DNA of 64,000 nucleotides from a virus: the IMG/VR virus record IMGVR_UViG_3300042505_001173, positions 32,001 to 96,000 of that record, one strand, 5' to 3'. The notes under the pieces are model-generated. The model searched no databases. It was not told where the DNA came from and saw only the letters and a program-made list of their open reading frames with translations. Positions 219 through 62,315 of the stretch are shown here, in pieces. A program made the position numbers and the translations under genes. Each line of letters opens with the position of its first letter. Positions within the stretch are counted from its first letter, which is position 1.

Positions 219-1259
219 ATGACAAAAAAATACGATGTACTCGTCTACATTGGACGTTTCAGTCCAATTCATAACGGCCATATTGAAACTATCAAAACAG
301 CCGCTAAACTTTGTAAAAAACTAATCATTATTGTTGGTTCATCTCATGGTCCAAGGACTATTAAAAATCCATGGACGTATGATGAACGAAGAAACTTCAT
401 TATTACATCACTTGAAAATATTGATGATCCTGATGTAAGAGCACTTGACGTAGATATTCAGTCAGTTGTTGATTATTTGTATAATGATGAACGATGGGCT
501 ACTCATATTCAAAATATTGTAAATTGCAGCTCAAATAGCGATAATATCGGTATCATTGGACATGAAAAAGACGAATCAAGTTATTACATTCATATGTTCC
601 CACAATGGAAAAAACATCTGATTAATGCTGTTGAGATTGATAGTAAAGTTATCAACGGTACTGATATTAGAAAAGCGTTCTTTAATTATACGATTGAAAA
701 ATTTGTAGAGTATTTACCTTATTCAGTTTATATTGATTTGTATACAAAATCGTCACTACCACCCTTTGTAGAATTGCGAAAAGAAAAAGAATATATTGAT
801 CAATATAAGCAATCTTTTTCAATGTTACCTTACCCACCTATCTTTGTTACAACTGATGCTGTAGTAATACAATCAGGGCATGTTTTAATGATTGAGAGAC
901 GTTCGTACCCCGGTAAAGGACTATGGGCATTACCAGGTGGTTTTGTTAACGCTGAGACAGATCGATCATTACAAGATGCAATGTTGCGTGAATTACGTGA
1001 AGAAACAAAACTTAAAGTACCTGATAAAGTATTGAAAGGTAGTATAGTTGATAAACGTGTATTTGATGCTGTTGGACGTTCATTACGCGGTAGAACAATA
1101 ACACATGCGTATCATATCAGATTACATGATGGTGAATTACCGAAAGTTAAAGGTAGTGATGATGCAGCGAAAGCAAGATTTATTCCGTTAAATGAAGTTT
1201 CAAGGTCTAATTGCTTTGAAGATCATTTTGAAATTATTTCTTGGTTTACAGGAGTTTAA
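219..1259 (+). CDS. nadM: bifunctional NMN adenylyltransferase / ADP-ribose pyrophosphatase (NadM-Nudix, NatV-like)
   Basis: GRFSPIHNGH (HxGH) motif, KNPW, NGTDIR; C-terminal Nudix box GGFV...AMLRELREET, GSDDA, FEDH. Confidence 0.93.
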   Translation: MTKKYDVLVYIGRFSPIHNGHIETIKTAAKLCKKLIIIVGSSHGPRTIKNPWTYDERRNFIITSLENIDDPDVRALDVDIQSVVDYLYNDERWATHIQNIVNCSSNSDNIGIIGHEKDESSYYIHMFPQWKKHLINAVEIDSKVINGTDIRKAFFNYTIEKFVEYLPYSVYIDLYTKSSLPPFVELRKEKEYIDQYKQSFSMLPYPPIFVTTDAVVIQSGHVLMIERRSYPGKGLWALPGGFVNAETDRSLQDAMLRELREETKLKVPDKVLKGSIVDKRVFDAVGRSLRGRTITHAYHIRLHDGELPKVKGSDDAAKARFIPLNEVSRSNCFEDHFEIISWFTGV

Positions 1260-1260
1260 T

Positions 1261-1535
1261 ATGTATAAATCAAACGAGTATAGTGATGGTTTTTCTGGGT
1301 TGATATTTGTTATATTTCTTGGCATTATAATTATCGGCTTTGCATATTTTTTTTTTCACCTAATACATCATCAACACCCACACCAACGTCATTAGAAAGA
1401 ATTCATTATATTCAAAATCTTTCCCGCGAAGAAGCTATTGATTTGTTACTAGTTGTATCAACGTATAGTGATTGCTATAGCTGTACAAAAATAATCAATA
1501 AAGCCATGGTCACTAATACAGGTAAACAAAAATGA
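1261..1535 (+). CDS. small membrane protein interrupted by a frameshift at a T10 tract; paralog of the next gene
   Basis: ATG 1261, TM helix, T10 at 1347-1356; the -1 frame continues SPNTSSTPTPTSLERIHYIQNLSREEAIDLLL... to TGA 1533-1535, overlapping the next ATG. Confidence 0.55.
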
Positions 1536-1753
1536 AAACGATATTAATTTTATGTTTACTGTTAGTAGGTTGCGATTCATTGACAACCTCGCCAGGACCA
1601 GATAGAGAGGTCGTAAGAATATCTTACATCAATAGTTTATCACCAGAAAAAGCAAAGGGAATCTTAATCGCGTGTGCAGATGCGCAGTGGCGCTATAATG
1701 TCATTGAAAAACATATGAAGTATGAGCAATATACCTATGGAGTACAAAAATGA
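1532..1753 (+). CDS. small lipoprotein
   Basis: MKTILILCLLLVGC lipobox; ATGA overlaps with both neighbours. Confidence 0.7.
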   Translation: MKTILILCLLLVGCDSLTTSPGPDREVVRISYINSLSPEKAKGILIACADAQWRYNVIEKHMKYEQYTYGVQK

Positions 1754-3120
1754 AAAATTTGTTATTAAATTCAGATAGTTACAAATATTCAATGCATGTT
1801 CAATACCCACCTGGAACTGATTACGTATATTCATACATTGAATCACGTGGTGGTATTTACGACACGGTAGTGTTTTTTGGACTTCAGATGTTTATCAAAG
1901 ATTATTTGATGAACCCTATTACGATTGAAGATATAGATGAAGCTGAAAAAGTATTATTACCTCATGTTGGAGTTTTTAACCGTGAAGGTTGGGAATATAT
2001 TATAAAACACCATAACGGTAGATTACCAGTTGAGATTAAAGCTGTTAAAGAAGGTACGAAAGTACCTGTTAGTAATGTATTAGTATCGATTATCAATACA
2101 GATCCAAATTGTTTTTGGTTAACGACGTTTCTCGAAACAGCATTATTGCGTGCTATTTGGTACCCAACTACAATTGCAACTCAAGGTTATTATACCAAGA
2201 AGAATATCAAAAAATATTTGGATATGACAAGCGGTATTATTGGTGGACTTGATTATATGTTAATCGATTTCGGAAGTCGTGGAGTTTCTAGTTTAGAAAG
2301 CTCAGAAATCGGTGGAACTGCTCATTTATTAAATTTCAAAGGGTCTGATAATGTTTTAGCTATTGCGTATGCAAAGAAATATTATGGGTGCACAACAGCT
2401 GGCTATAGTGTACCAGCTATGGAACACAGTACTGTTACCAGTTGGGGAAGAGAAAATGAATTTGATTCCTACAATAATATGGTTGAAAAATATAAGGATT
2501 TTCCAATCGTAAGTTGTGTTTCTGATAGTTATGATATCTTTGAAGCATGCCATTATGTTGGCAAACATTTAAAAGATAAAATTATTGCTAATAACCAGAC
2601 CTATGTTATTAGACCTGATTCAGGTGATCCGGAAAAAGTAATTGTTGAATGTTTAGAGATTCTAAGTGGTTATTTTGAATGCAAAGAAAACCTTCATGGG
2701 TATAAAGAGTTATCTAATGTCAAGATATTATGGGGTGATGGCATTAATCATGATAGTATTGAACAAATCATGTATGTAGTTGCCATGGCCGGGTATAGCA
2801 TTAATAATTTAGTTTTTGGTTCTGGTGGAGCATTATTGCAACAAATGAATCGCGATACATTAAAGTTTGCTATGAAATGTAGCGCTATTAGAGTGAACGG
2901 TGTATGGAGAGATGTTTTCAAAAATCCTGTAACTGATAGTGGTAAACAATCTAAACGTGGAGCTGTAAAATTATATCAACATAAAATTGATAAAAAATTC
3001 GTTACAGCTGTTGGTGCACCATCACCTGATTATGAAGATGTTATGGAATTAGTGTATACAAATAATAGATTACACCGCGATCAAACATTAGATGAAATCA
3101 GATGTTTAGTAAATATGTAA
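1750..3120 (+). CDS. nadV: nicotinamide phosphoribosyltransferase
   Basis: SDSYKYS, YSYIESRGG, DFGSRG, SVPAMEHS, VSDSYD, IRPDSGDP, GDGI, FGSGGALLQ motifs. Confidence 0.95.
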   Translation: MKNLLLNSDSYKYSMHVQYPPGTDYVYSYIESRGGIYDTVVFFGLQMFIKDYLMNPITIEDIDEAEKVLLPHVGVFNREGWEYIIKHHNGRLPVEIKAVKEGTKVPVSNVLVSIINTDPNCFWLTTFLETALLRAIWYPTTIATQGYYTKKNIKKYLDMTSGIIGGLDYMLIDFGSRGVSSLESSEIGGTAHLLNFKGSDNVLAIAYAKKYYGCTTAGYSVPAMEHSTVTSWGRENEFDSYNNMVEKYKDFPIVSCVSDSYDIFEACHYVGKHLKDKIIANNQTYVIRPDSGDPEKVIVECLEILSGYFECKENLHGYKELSNVKILWGDGINHDSIEQIMYVVAMAGYSINNLVFGSGGALLQQMNRDTLKFAMKCSAIRVNGVWRDVFKNPVTDSGKQSKRGAVKLYQHKIDKKFVTAVGAPSPDYEDVMELVYTNNRLHRDQTLDEIRCLVNM

Positions 3121-23443: not shown

Positions 23444-26400
23444 TTAAGGGAATGCTTGACCGCTACATACACCATAAATTTTTGTACCATCTCCAAAAAA
23501 TGAGAAGATGTCAGTTGTACCAGCAAGTGATGTCGGTACAGGAACAATATTACTTTCCCAACTAATAGTACCACTCCAAGTAATCGTATGTGCACCTGAA
23601 TATTTCACAACAACTGATACACTTTTACCGGTAAATGCGCTAGCAGCAGGTAATGTGATAGTAACATTAGCCGTAGTTGATAATATTTGCATAGATCCTT
23701 GAGTTGGATCTAACGCCCATGTAGTTGAATTGGTATTGTATATATTTTCAACAATTCCACCTGGTATTACAACAGAATTATCACTCTGTACAATTAAAGC
23801 TGGTATAGGATCTTTAGCTCCATTTTTTGTAGAACTAATTACCAATCTACTACCGTGCGCTGTTACAGACCAATCTTCAGTACTGTAAGCTTCAATTAAT
23901 GTACTTACATATTCAGTAGCTCCATCCCACCCACCTAATTTAACAGATCCTAATAATGTACCAGTTGGGTTGGTTGGTTTAGTAGCTGCTGGAGTGACAG
24001 GCGAAGGACTTGAAAATAATTGAACACTTGCACCTGATGTCGCTGACGCTGTTGGGTTATACACTGTTAACGCAGCTGTAGTATTTGTTGTTACCGCTTC
24101 CAATACAACTTTTTCAGTTTTTAATGTGGAACTAGTTTTATCATATGTAAATTTAGTATCTTCAGATAATGTTCCACCTGATGAAATAATAACTGATTTA
24201 TCCGCAAATGTTGAAACCGTTGTAGGACCAACAGCTTTATCATCTACATATTTTTTTGTTACTAACGCTGCATCTTTTCCATTTAAATCTGTTAATGTGA
24301 AACCGGTAGCATACTCTAAAACTTGTTTAGGTTTAGATGTTGATGTATTATCAAATACAGTTCCTAATTGTAAGTAATTAGAATCAGCGTATTTTTTAGT
24401 AGTGTAATAATAATCAAAATCAGCAGCTGGTACACCTACTGCGCCAATATTATTGTTCAAGTCTGAACTATACGCACTACCTAATGTTTTTAAATTAGCT
24501 GAAATACGATATTCATTATGTGGAGTATCATATGTTACATTTCGTAACGATACAGCTGTACCAGTTAATAACAAAGGTTCAACAACTGTAAATCCAACAG
24601 GGGTACCACCCGTTGATCCAATTGAAGCGTAGTGCGTATCAGCAAAATGTTTAGTTACGAAATAATTATCGTAATCAGCTGGAACTTTACCAACCTCTTT
24701 ATTGATATTATTATCATTATCGGAACTTAAAATATGTTTTTTAGTTTGAATGTTTACATCAAAATCATATCTATCATTAGCGTTATCTAATGTAATGTGA
24801 GGTAACGTTAACACACCACTTGAATCTACATTGAAAGGTGCACTAACTTTAACACCTCCTAATACAGTAGGTGACGATACAGGTAACGTGTACGAACTAG
24901 AAGATTTGACATAATTAGCATCAGCGAAATGTTTAGTTATGAAATATTTGTCATAATCAGTTACAGCTTTTAATGGATCGCTAAAGATTTTATTATCAAT
25001 ATGATCACTGTACGAAAACTCACCAGATTTGATAGCTGCAGCAAATACATATTCAGCTGGGGCTGCTAATACAGGAGGTGTGGCCGTCGGGTTAGCAGTG
25101 ACAGGTGCAGTATATGTAATTTGAGGTAACGATAACACGCCTGTGTTACTCATATCAAATGGCGTACCCACTTTAATGCCACCTAACGTGGTATTGTTAG
25201 CTGCTAGTAATGCGTATGGGTTAGTACCACCTGCACCTCCCCCACCTATAGCTGCATAATGAGTGTCTGCAAATTTCTTGGTTATAAAATACTTGTCGTA
25301 ATTTTTAGATACGTCTAAACCGATAGTGTTGTTATCGTCGTCACTGTAAATCCACTTCAGTGATTTAATAGCTGCATCGACTGTATATTCAGCTGGAGCT
25401 GCTAATACAGGAGGTGTGGCCGTCGGGTTAGCAGTTACCTCACTAGTGAATGCAAATTTTTGCAATTGCAATACACCTGTAGCATCAACAGCAAACGGTT
25501 TCGCAATCATTATTCCACCGACAACCGTAGCGGTAGCTATTGAAGTAGATGAACCACCAGGTACACCTGGTGTACCAATTGCCGAGTAACGCGCATCTGC
25601 GTAATTTTTAGTGATGAAATAACCATCGTAAAAATTTGCTGGTTTAGTTGTATCAGCATCGACAGTATTGTGTACATCGGTACTATATAAAGCGTTACCT
25701 GATTTAATAGCAGCTGTAAAATTATATTCTGATTTAGCTGAATCGTAAGCAACCTTAGCTAAAGATAAAACACCTGTCGCTGAAATTGTTAATGGGTCAC
25801 CAACTTTAACACCGCCCATGGTACCAACTGAAGCTGTAGGTAAAACGTATGTACCTCCCCCACCGGAGCCCCCACTTAATTTCACGAATTTACTTTCTGC
25901 GTAATGTTTCGTAATATAATATGAATCGTAATATGTAGATGGTTTTGAGTTATCTGCATCCACCAAACCGTCTTGTTCAGAACTATACAATGATTTCTGG
26001 GTCAATAAGTTCGCATTTATTGTATATTCAACTTTAGATGAGTTGTATGTTTGCCCAGCTAATGATAATTCACCGGTTGTAGCATTTGTTGTAAACGGAG
26101 CACCAACTTTAATACCACCTAATACAGTACTTGTTGCGATAGCTAATGGTCCACTACTACCACCCGCACCTAACGACGCGTAATGATCATCTGCATATTT
26201 TTTTGTAACGAAATAGTTATCGTAATCAGTGATTGGTCTTGTGATATCTACACCAATATTATTATCAACAGTAGAGCTATATGCTTCACCGGTAACTTTT
26301 AGGTTTGTAGAAAAATCATATTGGGCAGGAATTGATGGATCCGTAGCAGTAGCAGGTACAAAAATTCTATACTCTACATCTTCCAATGATATATCACCTA

Positions 26401-27430
26401 ACCCGTTTACAATGAATGGACGTTGTGGTCTAAAGCCGCCTAATACTAAACTTGTTGCAACAGGTAATGGACCTCCACTACCGGTTATCGTCGACCATCC
26501 AATAGTACCATTACCATCAGTGCAGGTTAACACTTGGTTGATAGCACCTTTGCTCCAACTTGCAGAGGTTCCATCGTATGCCAATATACCTTTAGTAGGT
26601 GTTGCTGTTGGTACCCAGCTAGGTGAAGATCTATTGGTTTCCCAACTCAACGAACCAGCTGAATCAGTACAGGTTAATACTTGGTTAGCAGAACTGCTTT
26701 TACTCCATACGGTATTGGTTCCATCATATGCAAATACACCTTTAGTTGGTGAACTTGTTGGGAACCATACCGGTAGTGAACTACCACCGCTACCTCCGCT
26801 ACCTAACCCAGCATAATGTTCATCGGCGTATTTTTTAGTAATGAAATATTTGTTAAATGTAGTTGCTGGAACACTAGGTGTTGGAGCAATATAGTTATAA
26901 TCATCGTAGCTATAGATATCGCCAGACATCATTAAATTGGCATCAATGGTGTACCTTGCTGATGACGGTGGTGTCACAGCTGCAGGCGCATAAGTGACAC
27001 CCTTCATGGTTAATGCACCTGATGATGGAACCATAAATGCGCCACCGGTTTTAATGACGCCAGCGGTTGAATCAGTTGCTAACGAAAGTGTAGGTGTGCT
27101 TCCACTACCGCCTGAACCTACCGCTGTCCAAACGTTACCGGTTGATGAAGGTGTAAAAACTTTTAATAATCTGGTGCCTGTATCAAACCACAATTGACCT
27201 ACTGTTGGGTTAGTAGGTGGTACGTTTCTACTGAAATTTTCTAACAGTCTTACTAAATTTGTTTGAAGGTCCTCACCGTACGTTATACTATATTTGCCGA
27301 ATAGAGATAAAGAAGTGGAGGTTTTATTTGTGGATCTTTCACTAATTGCGAAAGGAGGCTTATAAAAATACCCTGCAGTGGTAGAGTCATCACTCGAACT
27401 AAATTTTATAATATAATCGTTTATTGCCAT
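23444..27430 (-). CDS. tail fibre protein (start revised to MAINDYIIKF)
   Basis: N-terminus aligns with paralogs MALTDYTIKF and MTDTYTIKF; CATAAATA late-promoter-like site at 27463-27470; same internal repeats. Confidence 0.8.
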   Translation of the reverse strand: MAINDYIIKFSSSDDSTTAGYFYKPPFAISERSTNKTSTSLSLFGKYSITYGEDLQTNLVRLLENFSRNVPPTNPTVGQLWFDTGTRLLKVFTPSSTGNVWTAVGSGGSGSTPTLSLATDSTAGVIKTGGAFMVPSSGALTMKGVTYAPAAVTPPSSARYTIDANLMMSGDIYSYDDYNYIAPTPSVPATTFNKYFITKKYADEHYAGLGSGGSGGSSLPVWFPTSSPTKGVFAYDGTNTVWSKSSSANQVLTCTDSAGSLSWETNRSSPSWVPTATPTKGILAYDGTSASWSKGAINQVLTCTDGNGTIGWSTITGSGGPLPVATSLVLGGFRPQRPFIVNGLGDISLEDVEYRIFVPATATDPSIPAQYDFSTNLKVTGEAYSSTVDNNIGVDITRPITDYDNYFVTKKYADDHYASLGAGGSSGPLAIATSTVLGGIKVGAPFTTNATTGELSLAGQTYNSSKVEYTINANLLTQKSLYSSEQDGLVDADNSKPSTYYDSYYITKHYAESKFVKLSGGSGGGGTYVLPTASVGTMGGVKVGDPLTISATGVLSLAKVAYDSAKSEYNFTAAIKSGNALYSTDVHNTVDADTTKPANFYDGYFITKNYADARYSAIGTPGVPGGSSTSIATATVVGGIMIAKPFAVDATGVLQLQKFAFTSEVTANPTATPPVLAAPAEYTVDAAIKSLKWIYSDDDNNTIGLDVSKNYDKYFITKKFADTHYAAIGGGGAGGTNPYALLAANNTTLGGIKVGTPFDMSNTGVLSLPQITYTAPVTANPTATPPVLAAPAEYVFAAAIKSGEFSYSDHIDNKIFSDPLKAVTDYDKYFITKHFADANYVKSSSSYTLPVSSPTVLGGVKVSAPFNVDSSGVLTLPHITLDNANDRYDFDVNIQTKKHILSSDNDNNINKEVGKVPADYDNYFVTKHFADTHYASIGSTGGTPVGFTVVEPLLLTGTAVSLRNVTYDTPHNEYRISANLKTLGSAYSSDLNNNIGAVGVPAADFDYYYTTKKYADSNYLQLGTVFDNTSTSKPKQVLEYATGFTLTDLNGKDAALVTKKYVDDKAVGPTTVSTFADKSVIISSGGTLSEDTKFTYDKTSSTLKTEKVVLEAVTTNTTAALTVYNPTASATSGASVQLFSSPSPVTPAATKPTNPTGTLLGSVKLGGWDGATEYVSTLIEAYSTEDWSVTAHGSRLVISSTKNGAKDPIPALIVQSDNSVVIPGGIVENIYNTNSTTWALDPTQGSMQILSTTANVTITLPAASAFTGKSVSVVVKYSGAHTITWSGTISWESNIVPVPTSLAGTTDIFSFFGDGTKIYGVCSGQAFP
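25049..25435. repeat. 51-bp direct repeat inside the fibre gene (25049-25099 and 25385-25435)
   Basis: One mismatch; both copies encode TANPTATPPVLAAPAEY. Confidence 0.85.
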
Positions 27431-49253: not shown

Positions 49254-49828
49254 AATAATGTATTCCACATTTTGTTAATTTGTGAGAAGGATTTTAATAT
49301 ATTTCTTGCATCAACTAAAGCATTTCTTTTGCCTTGTTTTATGTTTAGCAAATTATAAATCTCAACCTTTTTGACAGCGCCCAATAAAACAAAACCTAAA
49401 GTGCTTAAATCGTATACATGAGTACTAAAATTAAGATCGATATCGACACGCTTGAACATTGCATCAAAGAACGGTAATGTAAACGAACCGGTATTATGAC
49501 CAATTACGGTAATAGCACGTGTATCAAAATGATCAAGTATGAAACCACCCATTTCTTCGATAGCTTCATAGAATGGAATCCCGTTTGCTGTTAAATGTTC
49601 AATTGTAAAACCATTGATACCTAAGGCTTCTTTATCCCAACATACATTTGGAATATCAGTATAATCAATCTCAACATACATTTCATCGATTTTATTAAAT
49701 TTTTCATCGACGACAATTAAACCAGCACTAATAACAGCGTAGCTTAAATCATCAACCCCTTTTGTAGGTTCACGTGAGTTGCTAAAGTTTAACCCACTTG
49801 TTTCACAGCTTAACACTAGATATTTCAT
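49250..49828 (-). CDS. DEDDh/DnaQ-family exonuclease fold, catalytic residues degenerate
   Basis: LVLSCETSG, IGHN..SFT, RNALVDA align to ExoI/II/III. Confidence 0.75.
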   Translation of the reverse strand: MKYLVLSCETSGLNFSNSREPTKGVDDLSYAVISAGLIVVDEKFNKIDEMYVEIDYTDIPNVCWDKEALGINGFTIEHLTANGIPFYEAIEEMGGFILDHFDTRAITVIGHNTGSFTLPFFDAMFKRVDIDLNFSTHVYDLSTLGFVLLGAVKKVEIYNLLNIKQGKRNALVDARNILKSFSQINKMWNTLL

Positions 49829-51972: not shown

Positions 51973-53457
51973 CTAAAAACTGATACTTTCGTATCTTGGA
52001 GAGTTAACAACCTCCATCATCATACCTTCAGGTGATAAAATCTCATCTTGCTCACCTGTTATATACTTCAAGATATTTGGACTAAAACCTGAAATCATAC
52101 AGGTATTAGGAGTATTATGTACTACTGGAAAATTGCCAGAGTTAGCATTAACATTCCAGAATACTAACTTAGGAATTGTATATCCAGCAATTTCAAATGA
52201 CGATCTAATTGTTTCATAGAACGTTTCAACCGCTGAAGCTTTAATTTGACTACGAGTAATAGCATTAAATTCCATATCAGAAATGATATAAATTGTTCCA
52301 ACCATATCACTAGGTGACAACTGATTAGTAATAGCTGCTTGTAGAATTAATTTAAACACTGCTTCAAGGTCTGTTGACATACCCCATTCAGCGTGTGAAA
52401 GATTATGAACCTTTTCAAAGATATTATTACCTTTTAAATCTTGAATTCTTGGGGTTTCACTAAACGTAATGAATTTGTCACGATATGGACCTTTTGCTCG
52501 TTCAGCAAAATAAATTGCTAACGATATACAAACTTCCATTGGAAGACCTGACATTGAACCACTAACATCAGCTACAACGATAGCGTTACTATCAACATCA
52601 ATTTTTGGTAAGTTTTTCCATAAAATTTCTGCTTCATCTGGTTTAATGTCACTTGTCCAATTGTTTAAAATTTTACCAACGATTTGATATGGATATAAAG
52701 TACTAGCGTTAACATGAACTTTCCCGTCTTTAGCTAATGTAATAAATTCTTCATAACGGGTAGCATCATTTCTTGCAAATGCTTTGCGATGTTTTAGTAA
52801 ACATTGACTTGGTAACTTAGAATAAGTAATGGTATCCCATTGTTTAGCACTCATACGATTTTCAGCAACTTCAAGATATCTGTTCAAATTTGAACATAAT
52901 TTACGATAATCTTTTGATGATAGCCCAAAAGCTTTACGCGTTAAATTACCTAATCGGACTGATTCTTTACTTGAAGTATTGATACGTTTTAACCATTTAC
53001 CTAAAATTGAAATAGGTTGATTTGATGTGATACCCTCAAGATCTCTACGTGATTGATCTTTCATTAAACTAAAAGCATATGATTCACAAGGTGTACCGAC
53101 AACTGAATAAAGATCATCCCATCTTCCGTATTCAGCAACGAGGTCTAATAGGTTTTTTGTTTGATCTGGGTAGTTACGAGCAAGCCATTCTAATTGAATA
53201 CGAAATGGTCTTCTTTGACCTTGACCACCACGAATATCTCTAAACATGTACATTAACCGTACAGCAATTGTCTTTTCTTGTGCAAATGCACGTGTAAACA
53301 AACTTAAAATTTCACTTTCGGTTCTTGATCTAATTGATCCACCTTGAGCAAAGAAATCAACACAATTGTTTAAAGATGAATGGTTAGTAATAGCACCGTT
53401 TTGTGTTGTTGAATGATTCATTTGATTTGAAATCGCTGATAAGAATTTTTCGGTCAT
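51973..53457 (-). CDS. Ro60/TROVE-like helical domain + vWA domain protein (DUF2828 type); start revised to MTEKFL
   Basis: TTQNGA, RDIRGGQGQR, YGRWDDL, KW, LYPYQI, MIDAS DVSGSM, ISDMEF, VFWN, ISGFSP; GGAG RBS 6 nt before ATG 53457. Confidence 0.8.
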   Translation of the reverse strand: MTEKFLSAISNQMNHSTTQNGAITNHSSLNNCVDFFAQGGSIRSRTESEILSLFTRAFAQEKTIAVRLMYMFRDIRGGQGQRRPFRIQLEWLARNYPDQTKNLLDLVAEYGRWDDLYSVVGTPCESYAFSLMKDQSRRDLEGITSNQPISILGKWLKRINTSSKESVRLGNLTRKAFGLSSKDYRKLCSNLNRYLEVAENRMSAKQWDTITYSKLPSQCLLKHRKAFARNDATRYEEFITLAKDGKVHVNASTLYPYQIVGKILNNWTSDIKPDEAEILWKNLPKIDVDSNAIVVADVSGSMSGLPMEVCISLAIYFAERAKGPYRDKFITFSETPRIQDLKGNNIFEKVHNLSHAEWGMSTDLEAVFKLILQAAITNQLSPSDMVGTIYIISDMEFNAITRSQIKASAVETFYETIRSSFEIAGYTIPKLVFWNVNANSGNFPVVHNTPNTCMISGFSPNILKYITGEQDEILSPEGMMMEVVNSPRYESISF

Positions 53458-53466
53458 TTTGTACTC

Positions 53467-54198
53467 CAAGACATTAATTGTTAAATTGCGGATACTGTCT
53501 TTATAACTAGATGCATAAGTCATTTTCAATAATGAGTTGTTTAATTGCTGGAAGCATCTATAAGTGTTTAGGTTTTACCCTAAAAATATAAACTTGAAAC
53601 AAACTTATATTTTTAAGATCGAATGTTCCAACCAATACACCTCTAAGTCTGTCAGGACTTAGTTTATTTCATGGAGACTATTTTTAATCGCTGTATGTGC
53701 GGTTATTGGAACACCCAATTTTTAAAAATATAGACCTGTTTTTAGCAACCCACATTCATTCCAATAAGATTAGATATGTAATTGCTGTAAGTGAGTTTTA
53801 TAACAGGTCTACATCTGTACATCAATATGAGGTTTTTCACGATGATCGATCACTTATTGTGACCATCAAACGTTTAACCTCTCTGCATTAAAATTATATG
53901 CTGTACTACACCTACTTGGAGGTGCCATCTTAAACCAAGATGGAGCAAGATCTTATTAACATTTTCGATTATTGCTGTTAAGATCTTTGATAAAAGAGCG
54001 GTCACGATCTAAATTTAACATTTGCAGTGTTTATAAAATTGCTGTTGAGATCGTTGATTTTACTAATAACTTTCAAGACCTTATTCACGTTTTCGAGTAT
54101 GAGTCGATTATTGTTGCAGTTAAGGTCTTACGTAAACTAGATTCTGTTTATGTGTTCAGATTAGAGGTCTGATATTAAATGGTTGCTGTTCGAATCTA
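53467..54198 (-). ncRNA. array of about 9 hairpin RNA units with conserved ACAGCAA motif (Y-RNA-like array)
   Basis: Units at 54137-54198, 54074-54129, 54003-54054, 53946-53987, ~53805-53913, 53731-53811, 53624-53713, 53507-53560, 53467-53501; each is stem + ACAGCAA-like motif + variable insert + complementary stem. Confidence 0.8.
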
Positions 54199-54206
54199 TA
54201 AAACGT

Positions 54207-54235
54207 ATTATAATGATCTAAAAAAATTAAATCAA
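54207..54235 (-). promoter_or_regulatory. sigma70-type promoter driving the RNA array + TROVE-like gene
   Basis: TTGATT-17-TATAAT, 8 nt before the first unit. Confidence 0.8.
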
Positions 54236-54248
54236 CTATATCTTTAAA

Positions 54249-55202
54249 TTAATACGCTTCAAGCCAGCTACCTGACAACCCACCTTTAACATACGAGGTA
54301 GGTTTACTTTCAAAGAAGTTTGTATGCTCAGGTGAGCCAATTAATTCATCAAACCACGGTACAGGATTATCTTTAACATTAAAGTTACCTTTGAACCCCA
54401 TTTGAATCAAACGACGATCTAACAAATATTTCATATATTCTTTAACATCGTTTTTAGGTAAACCTTCAATGTCACCCATTTCATACGCTAATTCAATGAA
54501 TTTTTCATCTAATTCGTAGAATTTACGAGAAATATCATAAACTTGTTTTTTAAACTCATCGTTGACGATACGAGGATGTTCATCAATATACGTTCTAAAC
54601 AGCATAATCAAACCTTCACAATGTGCTTGCTCATCAATGATAGACCATAGATTAACTTCACTCATACCTTTAAACAAACCACGTCTTGAGAAGTTTAATA
54701 GCATGATGAACGTTCCAAATAATGAAACACCTTCAGAAAACACATTCTTAACTAACGATAAAGCTTTACCTTTATGAGTCGAGGTATCGTTATCACCCAT
54801 AAAATCAATCTTGCTATACATTTGCTCATATTCTAAGAATGCTTCAAAATCTGATTCAGGTAAATTTAAAGTAGTCAATAAAGCTGAGTAAGCTCTTTGA
54901 TGTACACCTTCACGAGCTGCAAACGATAAAAGCATTTGTTGAATTTCGTTATTTTTAAATGTAGGTATCAAATTATTCGTATACATTGAAGCAACTTGCG
55001 CGTCACTCTGAGTAAAGAACTTTAAGATCTGATGAATCAGATTCTTTTCTTGAGGAGTGAGGTTGTTTTGCCAATCAGCAACATCTGGACTAAAATCCGT
55101 TTCCTCATGTGTCCAATGTGAACGTTCCGATTGAAGAGCCATCTCAACAGCCCATGGGTAGCTAAAAGGTTTGTATGTTTTACTTACTTCTAATACTGAC
55201 AT
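54249..55202 (-). CDS. nrdB: ribonucleotide reductase class I beta subunit
   Basis: YKPFSYPWA, FFTQSD, REGVHQRAY, EGVSLF, DEQAH, NFFE. Confidence 0.93.
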   Translation of the reverse strand: MSVLEVSKTYKPFSYPWAVEMALQSERSHWTHEETDFSPDVADWQNNLTPQEKNLIHQILKFFTQSDAQVASMYTNNLIPTFKNNEIQQMLLSFAAREGVHQRAYSALLTTLNLPESDFEAFLEYEQMYSKIDFMGDNDTSTHKGKALSLVKNVFSEGVSLFGTFIMLLNFSRRGLFKGMSEVNLWSIIDEQAHCEGLIMLFRTYIDEHPRIVNDEFKKQVYDISRKFYELDEKFIELAYEMGDIEGLPKNDVKEYMKYLLDRRLIQMGFKGNFNVKDNPVPWFDELIGSPEHTNFFESKPTSYVKGGLSGSWLEAY

Positions 55203-62187: not shown

Positions 62188-62302
62188 CAAGATTCATTTT
62201 AATTTCAATTATTCTACCAACTGAACTACATAACCTTTCGGTTATGGTGGGAATCGAACCCACGACACATTGATTCCGATTATATATTGCTGTTAGAATC
62301 TT
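62188..62302 (-). ncRNA. Y-RNA (YrlA)-like RNA: ACAGCAA stem enclosing a circularly permuted tRNA body
   Basis: AAGATTC-TA-ACAGCAA...TCAAT GTGTC GTGGG TTCGATT CCCAC CATAACC GAAA GGTTATG TA GTTC AGTTGGTA GAAT A ATTGA...GAATCTTG. Confidence 0.85.
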
Positions 62303-62315
62303 AACTTCAAATACA

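What the first reader, a model, noticed from the sequence alone, without database searches (positions are those of the whole stretch)
51973..54235. Candidate new RNP system: promoter-driven array of ACAGCAA hairpin RNAs co-transcribed with a Ro60/TROVE-like vWA protein
Seen: the roughly 740-nt gap between nrdB and the TROVE-like gene is structured. On the minus strand a near-consensus sigma70 promoter is followed by about 9 units of the form [6-10 bp stem]-N0-3-[ACAGCAA]-[variable insert]-[complementary stem]-(often G). Examples are TAGATTC.GA.ACAGCAA...GAATCTAG; AAGACCTT.A.ACTGCAA...AAGGTCTTG; ACGATCT.CA.ACAGCAA...AGATCGTG; AAGATCTT.A.ACAGCAA...AAGATCTTG; AACTCAC.TT.ACAGCAA...GTGGGTT; TAGATGC.TT.CCAGCAA...GCATCTAG; AAGACA.GTA.TCCGCAA...TGTCTTG. 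Stem sequences differ between units but stay complementary while the motif is held constant, which points to RNA-level selection rather than simple DNA repeats. The unit at ~53805-53913 is the weakest. The operon ends in a terminator after the protein gene. Known: Ro60 (TROVE+vWA) proteins bind a conserved stem in Y RNAs encoded next to their gene. Inference: the DUF2828-type protein binds the stem+ACAGCAA handle and displays interchangeable RNA payloads, i.e. a multiplexed RNA array unrelated to CRISPR.
Basis: partly seen in the sequence, partly recalled or inferred. Interest (0 to 1): 0.92.

Follow-up and report, generated by a model that had tools for sequence, protein, structure and literature searches.

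The report
Phage Ro60-like protein's partner RNA array
A large phage carries, just upstream of a gene for a ring-shaped Ro60-like protein, a row of seven or eight small hairpin RNA genes that share one conserved "handle"; the same pairing recurs in hundreds of phage and bacterial loci, I found no description of it, and the handle resembles the unexplained Class I RNAs of social amoebae.

Summary
On the minus strand between nrdB and a DUF2828/DUF7788 gene lie a sigma70-like promoter, seven model-supported units, one variant unit (ACAGCGA) and one doubtful stretch. Each unit is a 7-bp closing stem, 2 nt, ACAGCAA, a variable insert, the 3' stem arm and an unpaired G. An eighth, tRNA-shaped copy lies 8 kb away.

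A covariance model built from these units finds 158 copies in 79 viral loci that encode a homologue, and 187 in 80 independent genome or MAG loci. All 345 lie on the gene's strand, and none of the 122 placed in the viral set lies inside the gene. The stem covaries strongly. Ten nrdB-related contigs that lack the gene have no clear unit (one 16.8-bit match).

The protein's predicted fold matches full-length Ro60. Pfam TROVE and a PDB sequence-profile search do not detect it. No Rfam family covers the RNA. The nearest model, Dictyostelium Class I RNA, picks these units as its best hits in four of five phage genomes but scores below its cut-off.

Inserts are enriched for anticodon-loop-like hairpins. 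Most likely these are Y-RNA-like partners that display tRNA parts. This scan has already met the same class on other genomes. I found no publication describing it.

The parts
54207..54235 (-). sigma70-like promoter TTGATT-17 nt-TATAAT, about 8 nt upstream of unit 1
   Evidence: 10 of 12 positions; both hexamers identical in relative L003
54137..54199 (-). Unit 1: UAGAUUC-GA-ACAGCAA ... GAAUCUA-G. The insert holds a 5-bp stem with the 7-nt loop CCUCUAA.
   Evidence: R1 50.9 bits; fold z -2.3; insert hairpin identical in L003
54074..54130 (-). Unit 2: AAGACCUU-A-ACUGCAA ... AAGGUCUU-G. The insert hairpin UCGA-CUCAUAC-UCGA resembles a Met-type (CAU) anticodon loop.
   Evidence: R1 48.1 bits; fold z -3.7
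54003..54055 (-). Unit 3: ACGAUCU-CA-ACAGCAA ... AGAUCGU-G. The insert hairpin AACA-CUGCAAA-UGUU resembles a Cys-type (GCA) anticodon loop.
   Evidence: R1 40.7 bits; sequence
53946..53988 (-). Unit 4: AAGAUCUU-A-ACAGCAA ... AAGAUCUU-G. It is the shortest full unit and looks like unit 2 without the Met-like hairpin.
   Evidence: R1 46.5 bits; fold z -4.3; sequences
53799..53945 (-). Structured spacer with several hairpins and an ACAGCAU. It is not a bona fide unit.
   Evidence: Folds; no model hit; only the first hairpin and the 3' end are conserved in L003
53746..53798 (-). Unit 5: AACUCAC-UU-ACAGCAA ... GUGGGUU-G. It is nested in a 10-bp outer helix (53802-53811 with 53731-53740).
   Evidence: R1 42 bits; an A-U to G-C compensatory change in the stem and three compensated pairs in the outer helix versus L003
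53617..53718 (-). Variant unit 6: motif ACAGCGA (53688-53694) inside a long outer helix; the inner stem is weak in this phage.
   Evidence: Fold z -4.1; not detected by R1 or R2; the L003 counterpart has an 8-bp stem followed by G
53580..53616 (-). Long AU-rich hairpin between units 6 and 7. L003 has a hairpin of different sequence at the same place, followed in both by the conserved GGGUAAAACCUAA. It may be a processing site.
   Evidence: function inferred only
53507..53561 (-). Unit 7: UAGAUGC-UU-CCAGCAA ... GCAUCUA-G
   Evidence: R1 53.9 bits; best weak Rfam hit is Dictyostelium Class I RNA, 16.1 bits
53467..53502 (-). Unit 8: AAGACA-GUA-UCCGCAA ... UGUCUU-G. Its terminal G is the first G of the GGAG ribosome-binding site (53464-53467).
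   Evidence: R1 28 bits; conserved in L003 with motif UCUGCAA
51973..53457 (-). DUF2828 + DUF7788 protein, 494 aa from the ATG at 53457. Predicted Ro60-like HEAT-repeat ring plus a vWA domain with an intact MIDAS motif (D297-x-S299-x-S301, T362, D394).
   Evidence: Pfam; PHROG 850; AlphaFold2 pLDDT 87.7; the 12 best Foldseek hits are all Ro60; invariant residues
51908..51935 (-). Intrinsic terminator after the protein gene
   Evidence: 12-bp stem followed by a T-run
62188..62303 (-). Remote ninth copy with the same handle (AAGAUUC-UA-ACAGCAA ... GAAUCUU-G). It encloses a T-arm, an acceptor-like hairpin and a D-arm, giving a YrlA-like tRNA mimic.
   Evidence: R1 26.3 bits, not in the seed; RF02553 YrlA 41.2 bits, E 7e-8, below the cut-off of 69 and matching only the tRNA-like part; fold z -3.4

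Best explanation
The array encodes a family of small non-coding RNAs that are the partner RNAs of the adjacent DUF2828/DUF7788 protein. That protein is a sequence-divergent structural relative of Ro60. The arrangement parallels Y RNAs (YrlA/YrlB, Yrl1/2), which are encoded next to Ro60/Rsr and bound by it.

Proposed mechanism, with the status of each step:
1. Transcription starts at the sigma70-like promoter and runs through the units into the protein gene, ending at the terminator. The signals are shown; the transcript is inferred.
2. The precursor is cut into RNAs of about 40-65 nt (inferred).
3. The ring protein recognises the shared handle: a 7-bp closing helix with a conserved AGA...UCU base, a 2-nt linker, single-stranded ACAGCAA and an unpaired 3' G. 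This is inferred from tight, strand-specific co-occurrence and from the conservation pattern.
4. The variable insert is displayed. Inserts are enriched for tRNA parts: anticodon-stem-loop look-alikes in short units (Met-CAU-like and Cys-GCA-like here) and a T-arm, acceptor hairpin and D-arm in long units. The enrichment is shown.
5. The particle therefore engages factors that recognise tRNA. It could act as a decoy or sponge for host tRNA-targeting nucleases, or as a scaffold that brings tRNA-processing or repair enzymes or exonucleases to the ring, as Y RNA tethers PNPase to Rsr. This step is speculative.
6. Unit 8 abuts the Shine-Dalgarno sequence and may let the protein repress its own translation once the other sites are filled (speculative).
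For: Linkage:
- 158 of 158 hits (E <= 1) in 79 IMG/VR loci and 187 of 187 hits (E <= 0.1) in 80 independent GTDB genome or MAG loci lie on the DUF2828 gene's strand.
- Of 122 viral hits, 95 lie upstream of the gene, 27 downstream and none inside it.
- 54 of 79 viral loci have a unit (roughly 68 by a looser pattern scan, read by eye) and at least 64 of 80 genome loci do.

Genome-wide specificity:
- The window's own 147.6-kb genome has only the array and one remote copy.
- Among 14 nrdB-related contigs, all 3 with DUF2828 carry units next to it, and a fourth has a unit at its truncated end. The 10 without the gene have none except one 16.8-bit hit.

Cultured phages: units lie beside the gene in Staphylococcus 6ec, Listeria A511, Mycobacterium Archie, Campylobacter F336, E. 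coli CL1, Bacillus PJN02 and Enterococcus VRE9_3.

RNA-level selection:
- 98.7% and 99.9% of cells are paired.
- 229 and 233 cells show a change on both sides.
- Covariation scores are 0.73 and 0.57, against 0.21 and 0.24 for shuffles and at most 0.18 for slid registers.
- Compensatory changes separate the window from L003.

The linkage does not depend on tRNA clusters: 73 of the 95 loci with no tRNA within 3 kb still have units.

Protein:
- The 12 best Foldseek hits are all Ro60 (E about 1e-7 to 4e-5, TM 0.45-0.61).
- The MIDAS motif and many basic residues are invariant.

Payload: 96 of 262 units carry a stem of at least 4 bp closing a 7-nt loop with U at position 2 and a purine at position 6, against 25 +/- 4.7 in shuffles.

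Literature:
- In Listeria phage CKA15 the homologue CKA15_055 lies within 2 kb downstream of the three most transcribed non-coding regions, on the same strand. The authors speculated that these are Y RNAs, and the protein was detected in virions (PMC12282133).
- The units map to CKA15 25283-25608.
Against: - No binding, expression or processing data exist for these RNAs.
- The only CKA15 region with published coordinates (26,236-26,727) lies 0.6-1.1 kb upstream of the units, not on them.
- About 15-30% of DUF2828 loci show no unit within 3 kb, and a jumbo Salmonella phage shows none.
- The handle is unlike the Ro60-binding helix or the GNCGAA motif of known Y RNAs (PMC4201824).
- The hit alignments used for covariation were fitted to the model's structure, which inflates the paired fraction.
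- This genome fragment has no RtcB or Rnl2 gene to support a repair role, though it is only about 54% complete.
Confidence: 0.7

Rival explanations
1. The units are free-standing tRNA-mimic small RNAs, for example decoys for anticodon nucleases or for tRNA-modifying enzymes. They do not bind the DUF2828 protein and sit next to it only because both belong to the phage's tRNA and RNA-metabolism gene island and are co-regulated.
For: - Inserts mimic tRNA parts.
- In many phages the units are interspersed with tRNA genes. 47 of 79 viral loci have tRNAs within 3 kb, 312 of 316 of them on the same strand.
Against: - 73 of the 95 loci without a nearby tRNA still have units beside the gene.
- This window has no tRNA at all.
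- Units cluster within about 300 nt of the gene.
- Contigs that lack the gene have no clear unit.
- A universally conserved handle implies a common binder, and the adjacent Ro60-fold protein is the obvious candidate.
Confidence: 0.12
2. The hairpins are cis-acting elements of the DUF2828 mRNA, such as translational operators, stabilisers or attenuators, rather than separate RNAs.
For: - Unit 8 overlaps the ribosome-binding site.
- In 37 of 104 loci with upstream units, the nearest unit ends within 45 nt of the gene.
- No terminator lies between the array and the gene.
Against: - 27 of 122 units lie downstream of the gene. In 6ec and Archie all units are downstream, and in Archie they follow a terminator-like hairpin.
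- A remote copy lies 8 kb away.
- Other phages have copies scattered among tRNAs.
- tRNA-like inserts make no sense for a leader.
- At most, the last unit could serve as an operator as well as an RNA.
Confidence: 0.08
3. The handle is a maturation or recognition signal for a host enzyme (a ribonuclease or a tRNA-processing or modifying enzyme). The DUF2828 protein acts on other substrates.
For: - The ends are invariant (a 5' A or U, a 3' G).
- The units are arranged as an array, like the tRNA precursors they often sit among.
Against: - The handle would then be expected in phages without DUF2828, and that was not seen in the small control.
- The hosts span Bacillota, Actinomycetota, Pseudomonadota, Campylobacterota and MAGs labelled archaeal. 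That argues for a phage-encoded reader.
Confidence: 0.07
4. The repeats act at the DNA level, as protein-binding palindromes or recombination sites.
For: - Unit gain and loss between the window and L003 looks like recombination between handles.
Against: - All 345 hits are on one strand relative to the gene.
- The asymmetric motif lies on one arm only.
- G-U pairs are tolerated.
- The stem sequence varies while pairing is kept.
Confidence: 0.02

Closest known systems
Ro60/Rsr with Y RNAs, especially bacterial and mycobacteriophage YrlA/YrlB (Rfam RF02553; Chen et al. 2014, PMC4201824) and Thermus phage phiLo phiRo60 with Yrl1/Yrl2 (PMC12135203; PDB 9KOP, 9L5Y)
   Same: - The protein has the same predicted architecture: a HEAT-repeat ring plus a vWA/MIDAS domain.
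- Partner RNAs are encoded within about 2 kb on the same strand.
- The RNA is closed by a stem that pairs its 5' and 3' ends and carries the conserved site.
- A second module mimics tRNA. The copy at 62188-62303 matches YrlA's T-arm, acceptor hairpin and D-arm at 41 bits.
   Different: - The protein is not detected as TROVE by Pfam, nor as any PDB chain by sequence profile.
- The handle (stem, NN, ACAGCAA, then the 3' arm and G) is unrelated to the bulged Ro60-binding helix and GNCGAA/CGAA motif of Y RNAs.
- Most units are minimal hairpins of 40-65 nt carrying anticodon-loop-like inserts.
- They occur in arrays of up to about 9.
- No binding data exist.
Class I RNAs of dictyostelid social amoebae (Rfam RF01414; Kjellin et al. 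2021, PMC7919456)
   Same: - Size is 42-65 nt.
- A short stem joins the 5' and 3' ends.
- A conserved, mostly unpaired motif lies directly 3' of the 5' arm and contains the identical ACAGCAA(U).
- The geometry is the same (about 7 bp, then UU or NN, then ACAGCAA).
- The rest of the RNA is variable and AU-rich.
- The stem covaries.
- Four of the five positions that paper calls nearly invariant (C6, C9, A10, A11) are also invariant here.
- RF01414's best hits across the whole genomes of A511, 6ec, Archie and PJN02 fall on or overlap the DUF2828-adjacent units.
   Different: - Scores are 12-23 bits against a gathering score of 41.5.
- The first four bases of the 11-nt motif (CCUU) are not conserved here.
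- Class I RNAs start with an invariant G and end in CUGU.
- They have the DUSE promoter and are dispersed single genes in a eukaryote.
- Their only known direct binder is the RRM protein Rnp1A.
- Whether dictyostelids have a DUF2828 protein could not be determined here.
Phage tRNA gene clusters and tRNA-like decoys
   Same: - The units are often embedded among phage tRNA genes, co-oriented with them, and carry tRNA parts.
   Different: - They are not tRNAs. ARAGORN finds none in the window.
- The conserved handle is not a tRNA feature.
- The linkage is to DUF2828, not to tRNAs.

Membership tests
Ro60/TROVE-Y RNA ribonucleoprotein | Protein with the Ro60 fold: an alpha-helical HEAT-repeat ring plus a vWA domain with a MIDAS motif | tested here: met
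   AlphaFold2 model with pLDDT 87.7 and pTM 0.88. The 12 best Foldseek PDB hits are all Ro60 (9kop, 1yvr, 2i91, 9nf8, 2nvo, 9l5y and others), E 1.6e-7 to 4e-5, TM 0.45-0.61, over about 514-566 aligned columns. D297-x-S299-x-S301, T362 and D394 are invariant.
Ro60/TROVE-Y RNA ribonucleoprotein | Sequence membership in the TROVE family (Pfam PF05731), or a detectable sequence relationship to solved Ro60 chains | tested here: not met
   Pfam reports only PF11443 and PF25043 at E <= 0.01. A profile of 25 homologues finds no Ro60 chain in the PDB at E <= 1.
Ro60/TROVE-Y RNA ribonucleoprotein | Partner non-coding RNAs encoded next to the protein gene | tested here: met
Ro60/TROVE-Y RNA ribonucleoprotein | Y RNA signature: a terminal stem carrying the conserved Ro60-binding helix and GNCGAA-type motif (RF02553, RF00019) | tested here: not met
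   No Y RNA family reaches its gathering score. YrlA matches only the tRNA-like part of the remote unit, 41 bits against a cut-off of 69, with the stem columns mismatched.
Ro60/TROVE-Y RNA ribonucleoprotein | Physical binding of the RNA by the protein | not testable with these tools
   Needs EMSA, RIP or cryo-EM
Dictyostelium Class I RNA (RF01414) | RNA of 42-65 nt with a short terminal stem and a variable remainder | tested here: met
   Units are 36-63 nt with a 6-10 bp closing stem
Dictyostelium Class I RNA (RF01414) | 11-nt motif CCUUACAGCAA adjacent to the 5' arm of the stem | tested here: inconclusive
   ACAGCAA is conserved at the same place. CAGCA is near-invariant, at least 126 of 129 and 149 of 150 at every position. 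The CCUU part is not conserved.
Dictyostelium Class I RNA (RF01414) | Score at or above Rfam's gathering threshold of 41.5 bits | tested here: not met
   16.1 bits in the window; 18-23 bits for the best hits in four of five phage genomes
Dictyostelium Class I RNA (RF01414) | Invariant 5' G, 3' CUGU end and the DUSE promoter 60 nt upstream | tested here: not met
   Units here start with A or U and end in UUG or UAG. The promoter is bacterial sigma70-like. Listeria phage units do end in CUG.
tRNA genes | Cloverleaf recognised by ARAGORN or RF00005 | tested here: not met
   No tRNA in the window
CRISPR array | Near-identical direct repeats alternating with unique spacers | tested here: not met
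   Stems differ between units and only 7 nt are shared. No cas gene appeared among the ORFs scanned; there was no dedicated cas search.

The most novel reading that the evidence does not exclude
The phage handle RNAs and the dictyostelid Class I RNAs are one RNA class, through common descent or virus-to-host transfer. Class I RNAs have had no known mechanism since their discovery in 2004. On this reading they would be the Y-RNA-like partners of a Ro60-fold protein of the DUF2828 type, or of whatever reads stem + ACAGCAA. That would give them a first testable molecular function, and it would define a second, widespread branch of Ro/Y ribonucleoproteins spanning phages, bacteria and eukaryotes.
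Probability: 0.2. Interest if true: 0.9.

Novelty: new variant of a known kind. Interest (0 to 1): 0.8.

Why it matters
- Scale. DUF2828 proteins are very common: 711 phage records, including A511/P100-like, Felix O1-like, KVP40-like and cluster L mycobacteriophages, and more than 7,000 clusters. They also occur in plants, fungi and protists, and are annotated as 'unknown' or vaguely as 'RNA-binding'.
- A concrete hypothesis. A conserved partner-RNA handle turns this family into a testable ribonucleoprotein, a second Ro60/Y-RNA-like system with its own recognition code.
- A lead on function. The RNAs display tRNA parts, which points to phage-host conflict over tRNAs.
- Annotation. Many small 'hypothetical ORFs' and unannotated gaps in phage tRNA regions would be explained.
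- Dictyostelium. The resemblance to Class I RNAs could make a 20-year-old open question directly testable.
- A possible tool. The handle could serve to tether chosen RNA modules to a protein ring.

Tried and rejected
- tRNA genes: ARAGORN finds none in the window.
- An existing Rfam family: none reaches its gathering score in the window or in seven phage loci apart from tRNAs.
- A naive stem-plus-motif scan was too noisy with 6-bp stems and long spans. I replaced it with covariance models.
- MAFFT alignment A3 broke the register of the 3' arm, so I used A2.
- A near-identical DNA match in the phage collection: none.
- Does Dictyostelium have a DUF2828 protein?
  - Literature searches found nothing.
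  - The Atlas returned only viral clusters.
  - A 'longer proteins' search found one RecQ fusion.
  - A length-shifted search gave plant and fungal proteins.
  - A profile of eukaryotic members found 9,405 relatives. Of the ten most AT-biased among the top 150, the five with an organism label were Naegleria, a mite, a chrysophyte and a fungus, with no dictyostelid.
- Avesson et al. 2011, which reported the four Class I-interacting proteins, is not in the library.
- The supplement of Chen et al. 2014 is not held.
- RNA repair genes (RtcB, Rnl2) are absent from the 147.6-kb fragment.
- The 9-bp stem with ACAGCAA at 49452-49602 lies inside an ORF, neither model scored it, and I treated it as chance.
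Full report
**What is there**

The window comes from a 147.6-kb IMG/VR viral contig, estimated about 54% complete. It is a large tailed phage. It has a portal protein, a UvsX-like recombinase, a primase, NAD-salvage genes, nrdAB and DHFR.

On the minus strand, nrdB (54249-55202) is followed by about 790 nt with no long minus-strand ORF. Next comes a 494-aa gene (51973-53457) matching Pfam DUF2828 and DUF7788 and PHROG 850 'RNA-binding protein'.

The gap opens with TTGATT-17-TATAAT (54235-54207, 10 of 12 positions). An intrinsic terminator follows the gene at 51935-51908. No convincing minus-strand terminator lies in between.

**The units**

Seven units share one architecture:
- a 6-10 bp stem that pairs the unit's two ends;
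- 0-3 nt of linker;
- ACAGCAA, or the variants ACUGCAA, CCAGCAA and UCCGCAA;
- a variable insert;
- the 3' arm of the stem;
- an unpaired G.

I built a covariance model (R1) from 16 units of this phage and three others. It scores the seven at 28-54 bits, while the best background hit in the window is 13.8 bits. It also finds a copy that was not in the seed, at 62188-62303, at 26 bits.

The broader model R2 finds nothing else in the whole 147.6-kb genome. Every unit keeps its closing stem when folded alone (z -1.45 to -4.3). Every unit also keeps it in the MFE of the whole 767-nt transcript, with the motif largely unpaired.

Two stretches are weaker:
- Unit 6 (about 53617-53718, motif ACAGCGA) has a poor inner stem here but a good one in the relative L003.
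- The stretch 53799-53945 is structured but is not a unit.

Unit 5 also sits inside a 10-bp outer helix. That helix shows three compensated pairs relative to L003.

**Comparison with a close relative**

L003 encodes a protein 81% identical to the window's. It keeps the promoter, units 1, 5, 7 and 8, and the insert hairpin of unit 1 exactly. Unit 5's stem shows an A-U to G-C compensatory change.

Where the window has units 3 and 4, L003 has a single unit. Its second unit has a decayed motif. A Met-like hairpin (CUCAUAC or CUCAUAA) is present in both phages, but in units with different stems. So arrays gain and lose units, apparently by recombination between handles. More distant relatives have only two units.

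**Association with the protein family**

tblastn finds the protein in 711 phage records from very different hosts.

*Viral loci.* In 79 IMG/VR loci with a homologue and 3 kb of flank, R1 finds 158 hits at E <= 1, every one on the gene's strand. Of 122 hits at E <= 0.15, 95 lie upstream, 27 downstream and none inside the gene. About half lie within 200 nt of it. 54 of 79 loci have a hit. A looser pattern scan, read by eye, raises that to roughly 68 and shows variants with a one-base-shorter linker.

*Independent genome loci.* In 80 loci from GTDB genomes and MAGs, R2 finds 187 hits at E <= 0.1. All are again on the gene's strand, in at least 64 loci, with arrays of up to five among the 150 best hits and more in the full list.

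*Cultured phages.* Named phages carry units beside the gene:

| Phage | Units |
|---|---|
| Staphylococcus 6ec | 3, downstream |
| Listeria A511 | 3, upstream of gp57 |
| Mycobacterium Archie | 3, downstream, one tRNA-like |
| Campylobacter F336 | 2 |
| E. coli CL1 (Felix O1-like) | among tRNAs |
| Bacillus PJN02 | at least 6 |
| Enterococcus VRE9_3 | present |

A jumbo Salmonella phage showed none.

*Negative control.* Among 14 contigs related through nrdB, the 3 with DUF2828 have units next to it. One contig truncated at that point has a unit at its end. The 10 without the gene, including two genomes at least 92% complete, have none except one 16.8-bit hit.

*Independence from tRNA clusters.* 73 of the 95 loci with no tRNA within 3 kb still have units.

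**RNA-level selection**

| Measure | Viral hits | Independent genome hits |
|---|---|---|
| Cells forming a standard pair | 98.7% | 99.9% |
| Cells changed on both sides | 229 | 233 |
| Covariation score | 0.73 | 0.57 |
| Score in shuffles | 0.21 | 0.24 |
| Score in slid registers | at most 0.11 | at most 0.18 |

All seven pairs show double changes in both sets. These alignments were fitted to the model, which favours pairing. The slid-register control and the window-versus-L003 changes do not depend on that.

The consensus handle is 5'-(A/U)(A/U)AG(A/G)(C/U)N C-NN-ACAGCAA ... G N(G/A)(U/C)CU(U/A)-G-3'. CAGCA and the 3' G are nearly invariant. So both the base of the stem and the single-stranded motif look like a recognition surface.

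**The protein**

AlphaFold2 gives a confident model (pLDDT 87.7, pTM 0.88). The 12 best Foldseek hits in the PDB are all Ro60 and cover the whole chain. They include Thermus phage phiRo60, Xenopus and human Ro60 and Deinococcus Rsr, with E 1.6e-7 to 4e-5 and TM 0.45-0.61. Only isolated vWA domains follow.

The vWA MIDAS residues and a set of N-terminal arginines and lysines are invariant across 25 homologues. By sequence the family is separate:
- Pfam finds no TROVE domain.
- A profile of homologues finds no PDB chain.

**The inserts**

Long units enclose a permuted tRNA-like module of T-arm, acceptor-like hairpin and D-arm. The remote copy matches Rfam YrlA at 41 bits through that module only.

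Short units often carry a small hairpin with a 7-nt loop. Among 262 distinct units, 96 have a stem of at least 4 bp closing a 7-nt loop with U at position 2 and a purine at position 6. Shuffled inserts give 25 +/- 4.7, with a maximum of 42. Position 1 of such loops is C or U in 86% of cases, as in anticodon loops. About 15 of them are T-loops.

In this window, unit 2 displays CUCAUAC (Met-like), unit 3 CUGCAAA (Cys-like) and unit 1 CCUCUAA.

**What is known**

No Rfam family covers the units. The best weak match is Dictyostelium Class I RNA (RF01414).

I ran that model over five whole phage genomes. Its top hits in A511, 6ec, Archie and PJN02 fall on or overlap the DUF2828-adjacent units, at 18-23 bits and E 0.004-0.08 per genome. 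Its cut-off is 41.5 bits.

Class I RNAs are 42-65 nt. They have a terminal stem followed by CCUUACAGCAA and a variable remainder. They are reported as unique to dictyostelids and their function is unknown (PMC7919456). The geometry and four of their five most invariant motif positions coincide with the phage handle. The ends, the promoter and the score do not. This is a resemblance, not membership.

I could not establish whether dictyostelids encode a DUF2828 protein. The family does occur in plants, fungi, Naegleria and a chrysophyte.

Known Y RNAs carry a different binding motif (GNCGAA or CGAA) and were sought only next to TROVE-annotated genes (PMC4201824, PMC12135203). These include YrlA in bacteria and cluster C mycobacteriophages, and Yrl1/2 of phage phiLo.

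The library holds five papers that mention DUF2828, and none is about its RNA. No paper pairs ACAGCAA with Ro60 in this sense.

The nearest prior statement is in the Listeria phage CKA15 multi-omics paper. Its authors noted three very highly transcribed non-coding regions within 2 kb upstream of CKA15_055, on the same strand. CKA15_055 is the homologue; HHpred matched it to Rsr, and it was detected in virions. They speculated that the regions might be Y RNAs, but defined no motif or structure (PMC12282133). The units map to CKA15 25283-25608. The one region with published coordinates (26,236-26,727) lies upstream of them.

**How it most likely works**

The best reading is a Y-RNA-like ribonucleoprotein. 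The Ro60-fold DUF2828 ring binds the handle and presents the insert.

What is shown:
- the RNA family exists;
- it is under selection for structure;
- it is linked to the gene;
- the protein has the Ro60 fold;
- the inserts are biased towards tRNA parts.

What is inferred: transcription as one precursor, processing, binding and function.

The function is probably engagement of tRNA-recognising factors. The particle could be a decoy for host tRNA-targeting nucleases. Alternatively it could be a scaffold for tRNA surveillance or repair, by analogy with Y RNA tethering PNPase to Rsr. Possible self-repression through unit 8 at the ribosome-binding site is speculative. A unit lies within 45 nt of the gene in about a third of loci with upstream units.

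**Standing in this scan**

Earlier follow-up reports of this scan reached the same class on at least eight other genomes. They also noted the remote unit, the anticodon look-alikes and the RBS overlap in this genome. I had found the Class I RNA lead and the cross-phage recurrence before reading those notes, and I tested the claims above independently.

Noticed in passing
window 62188-62303 (-): A stand-alone copy of the handle encloses a T-arm, an acceptor-like hairpin and a D-arm, giving a YrlA-like tRNA mimic. It lies about 2.4 kb from three tRNA genes just outside the window (genome 96666-97111).
   Followed up: partly
window 53725-53815 (-): Unit 5 is nested in a second, 10-bp outer helix (UAGACCUGUU / AACAGGUCUA). 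The helix is kept in relative L003 with three compensated pairs, and it begins and ends like a handle stem.
   Followed up: partly
window 53799-53945 and 53580-53616 (-): Structured spacers lie inside the array: several hairpins, and a long AU-rich hairpin followed by the conserved GGGUAAAACCUAA. Position and pairing are kept in L003 although the sequence differs. They may be processing sites.
   Followed up: no
window 51973-53529 (-): The longest ORF starts at a TTG (518 aa) and would run through units 7 and 8. A 98%-identical database protein of 516 aa appears to have been called that way. The ATG at 53457, preceded by GGAG, is the likely true start.
   Followed up: partly
L084 2521-3012 (Listeria phage A511; corresponds to CKA15 26,236-26,727): An unannotated region of about 490 nt lies downstream of a tRNA-Pro and a TTGACA promoter. 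In phage CKA15 the matching stretch takes up to about 67% of phage reads. No Rfam family matches it, so it may be a large unknown ncRNA.
   Followed up: no
L084 3341-3411 (A511): Rfam finds a tRNA (52.5 bits) that is not annotated in the record and lies inside the annotated gp58 ORF.
   Followed up: no
window 219-3120 (+): NAD-salvage genes are present: a cytidylyltransferase/NMN adenylyltransferase-NUDIX protein and nicotinamide phosphoribosyltransferase. Similar genes occur in KVP40-like and P100-like phages.
   Followed up: no
P0121 (metagenome protein, 1148 aa): A single DUF2828/DUF7788 protein is fused to a RecQ-type helicase. It could be a real fusion or a gene-calling artefact.
   Followed up: no
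L090 (Salmonella jumbo phage SE_PL): The DUF2828 gene lies two genes downstream of an RNA ligase gene, but the model detects no handle unit within 4 kb.
   Followed up: no
L141 and L106 (MAG contigs labelled Woesearchaeota and Promethearchaeota): DUF2828 genes occur on contigs binned as archaeal, and L141 also carries two strong handle units. These could be archaeal viruses or binning errors.
   Followed up: no
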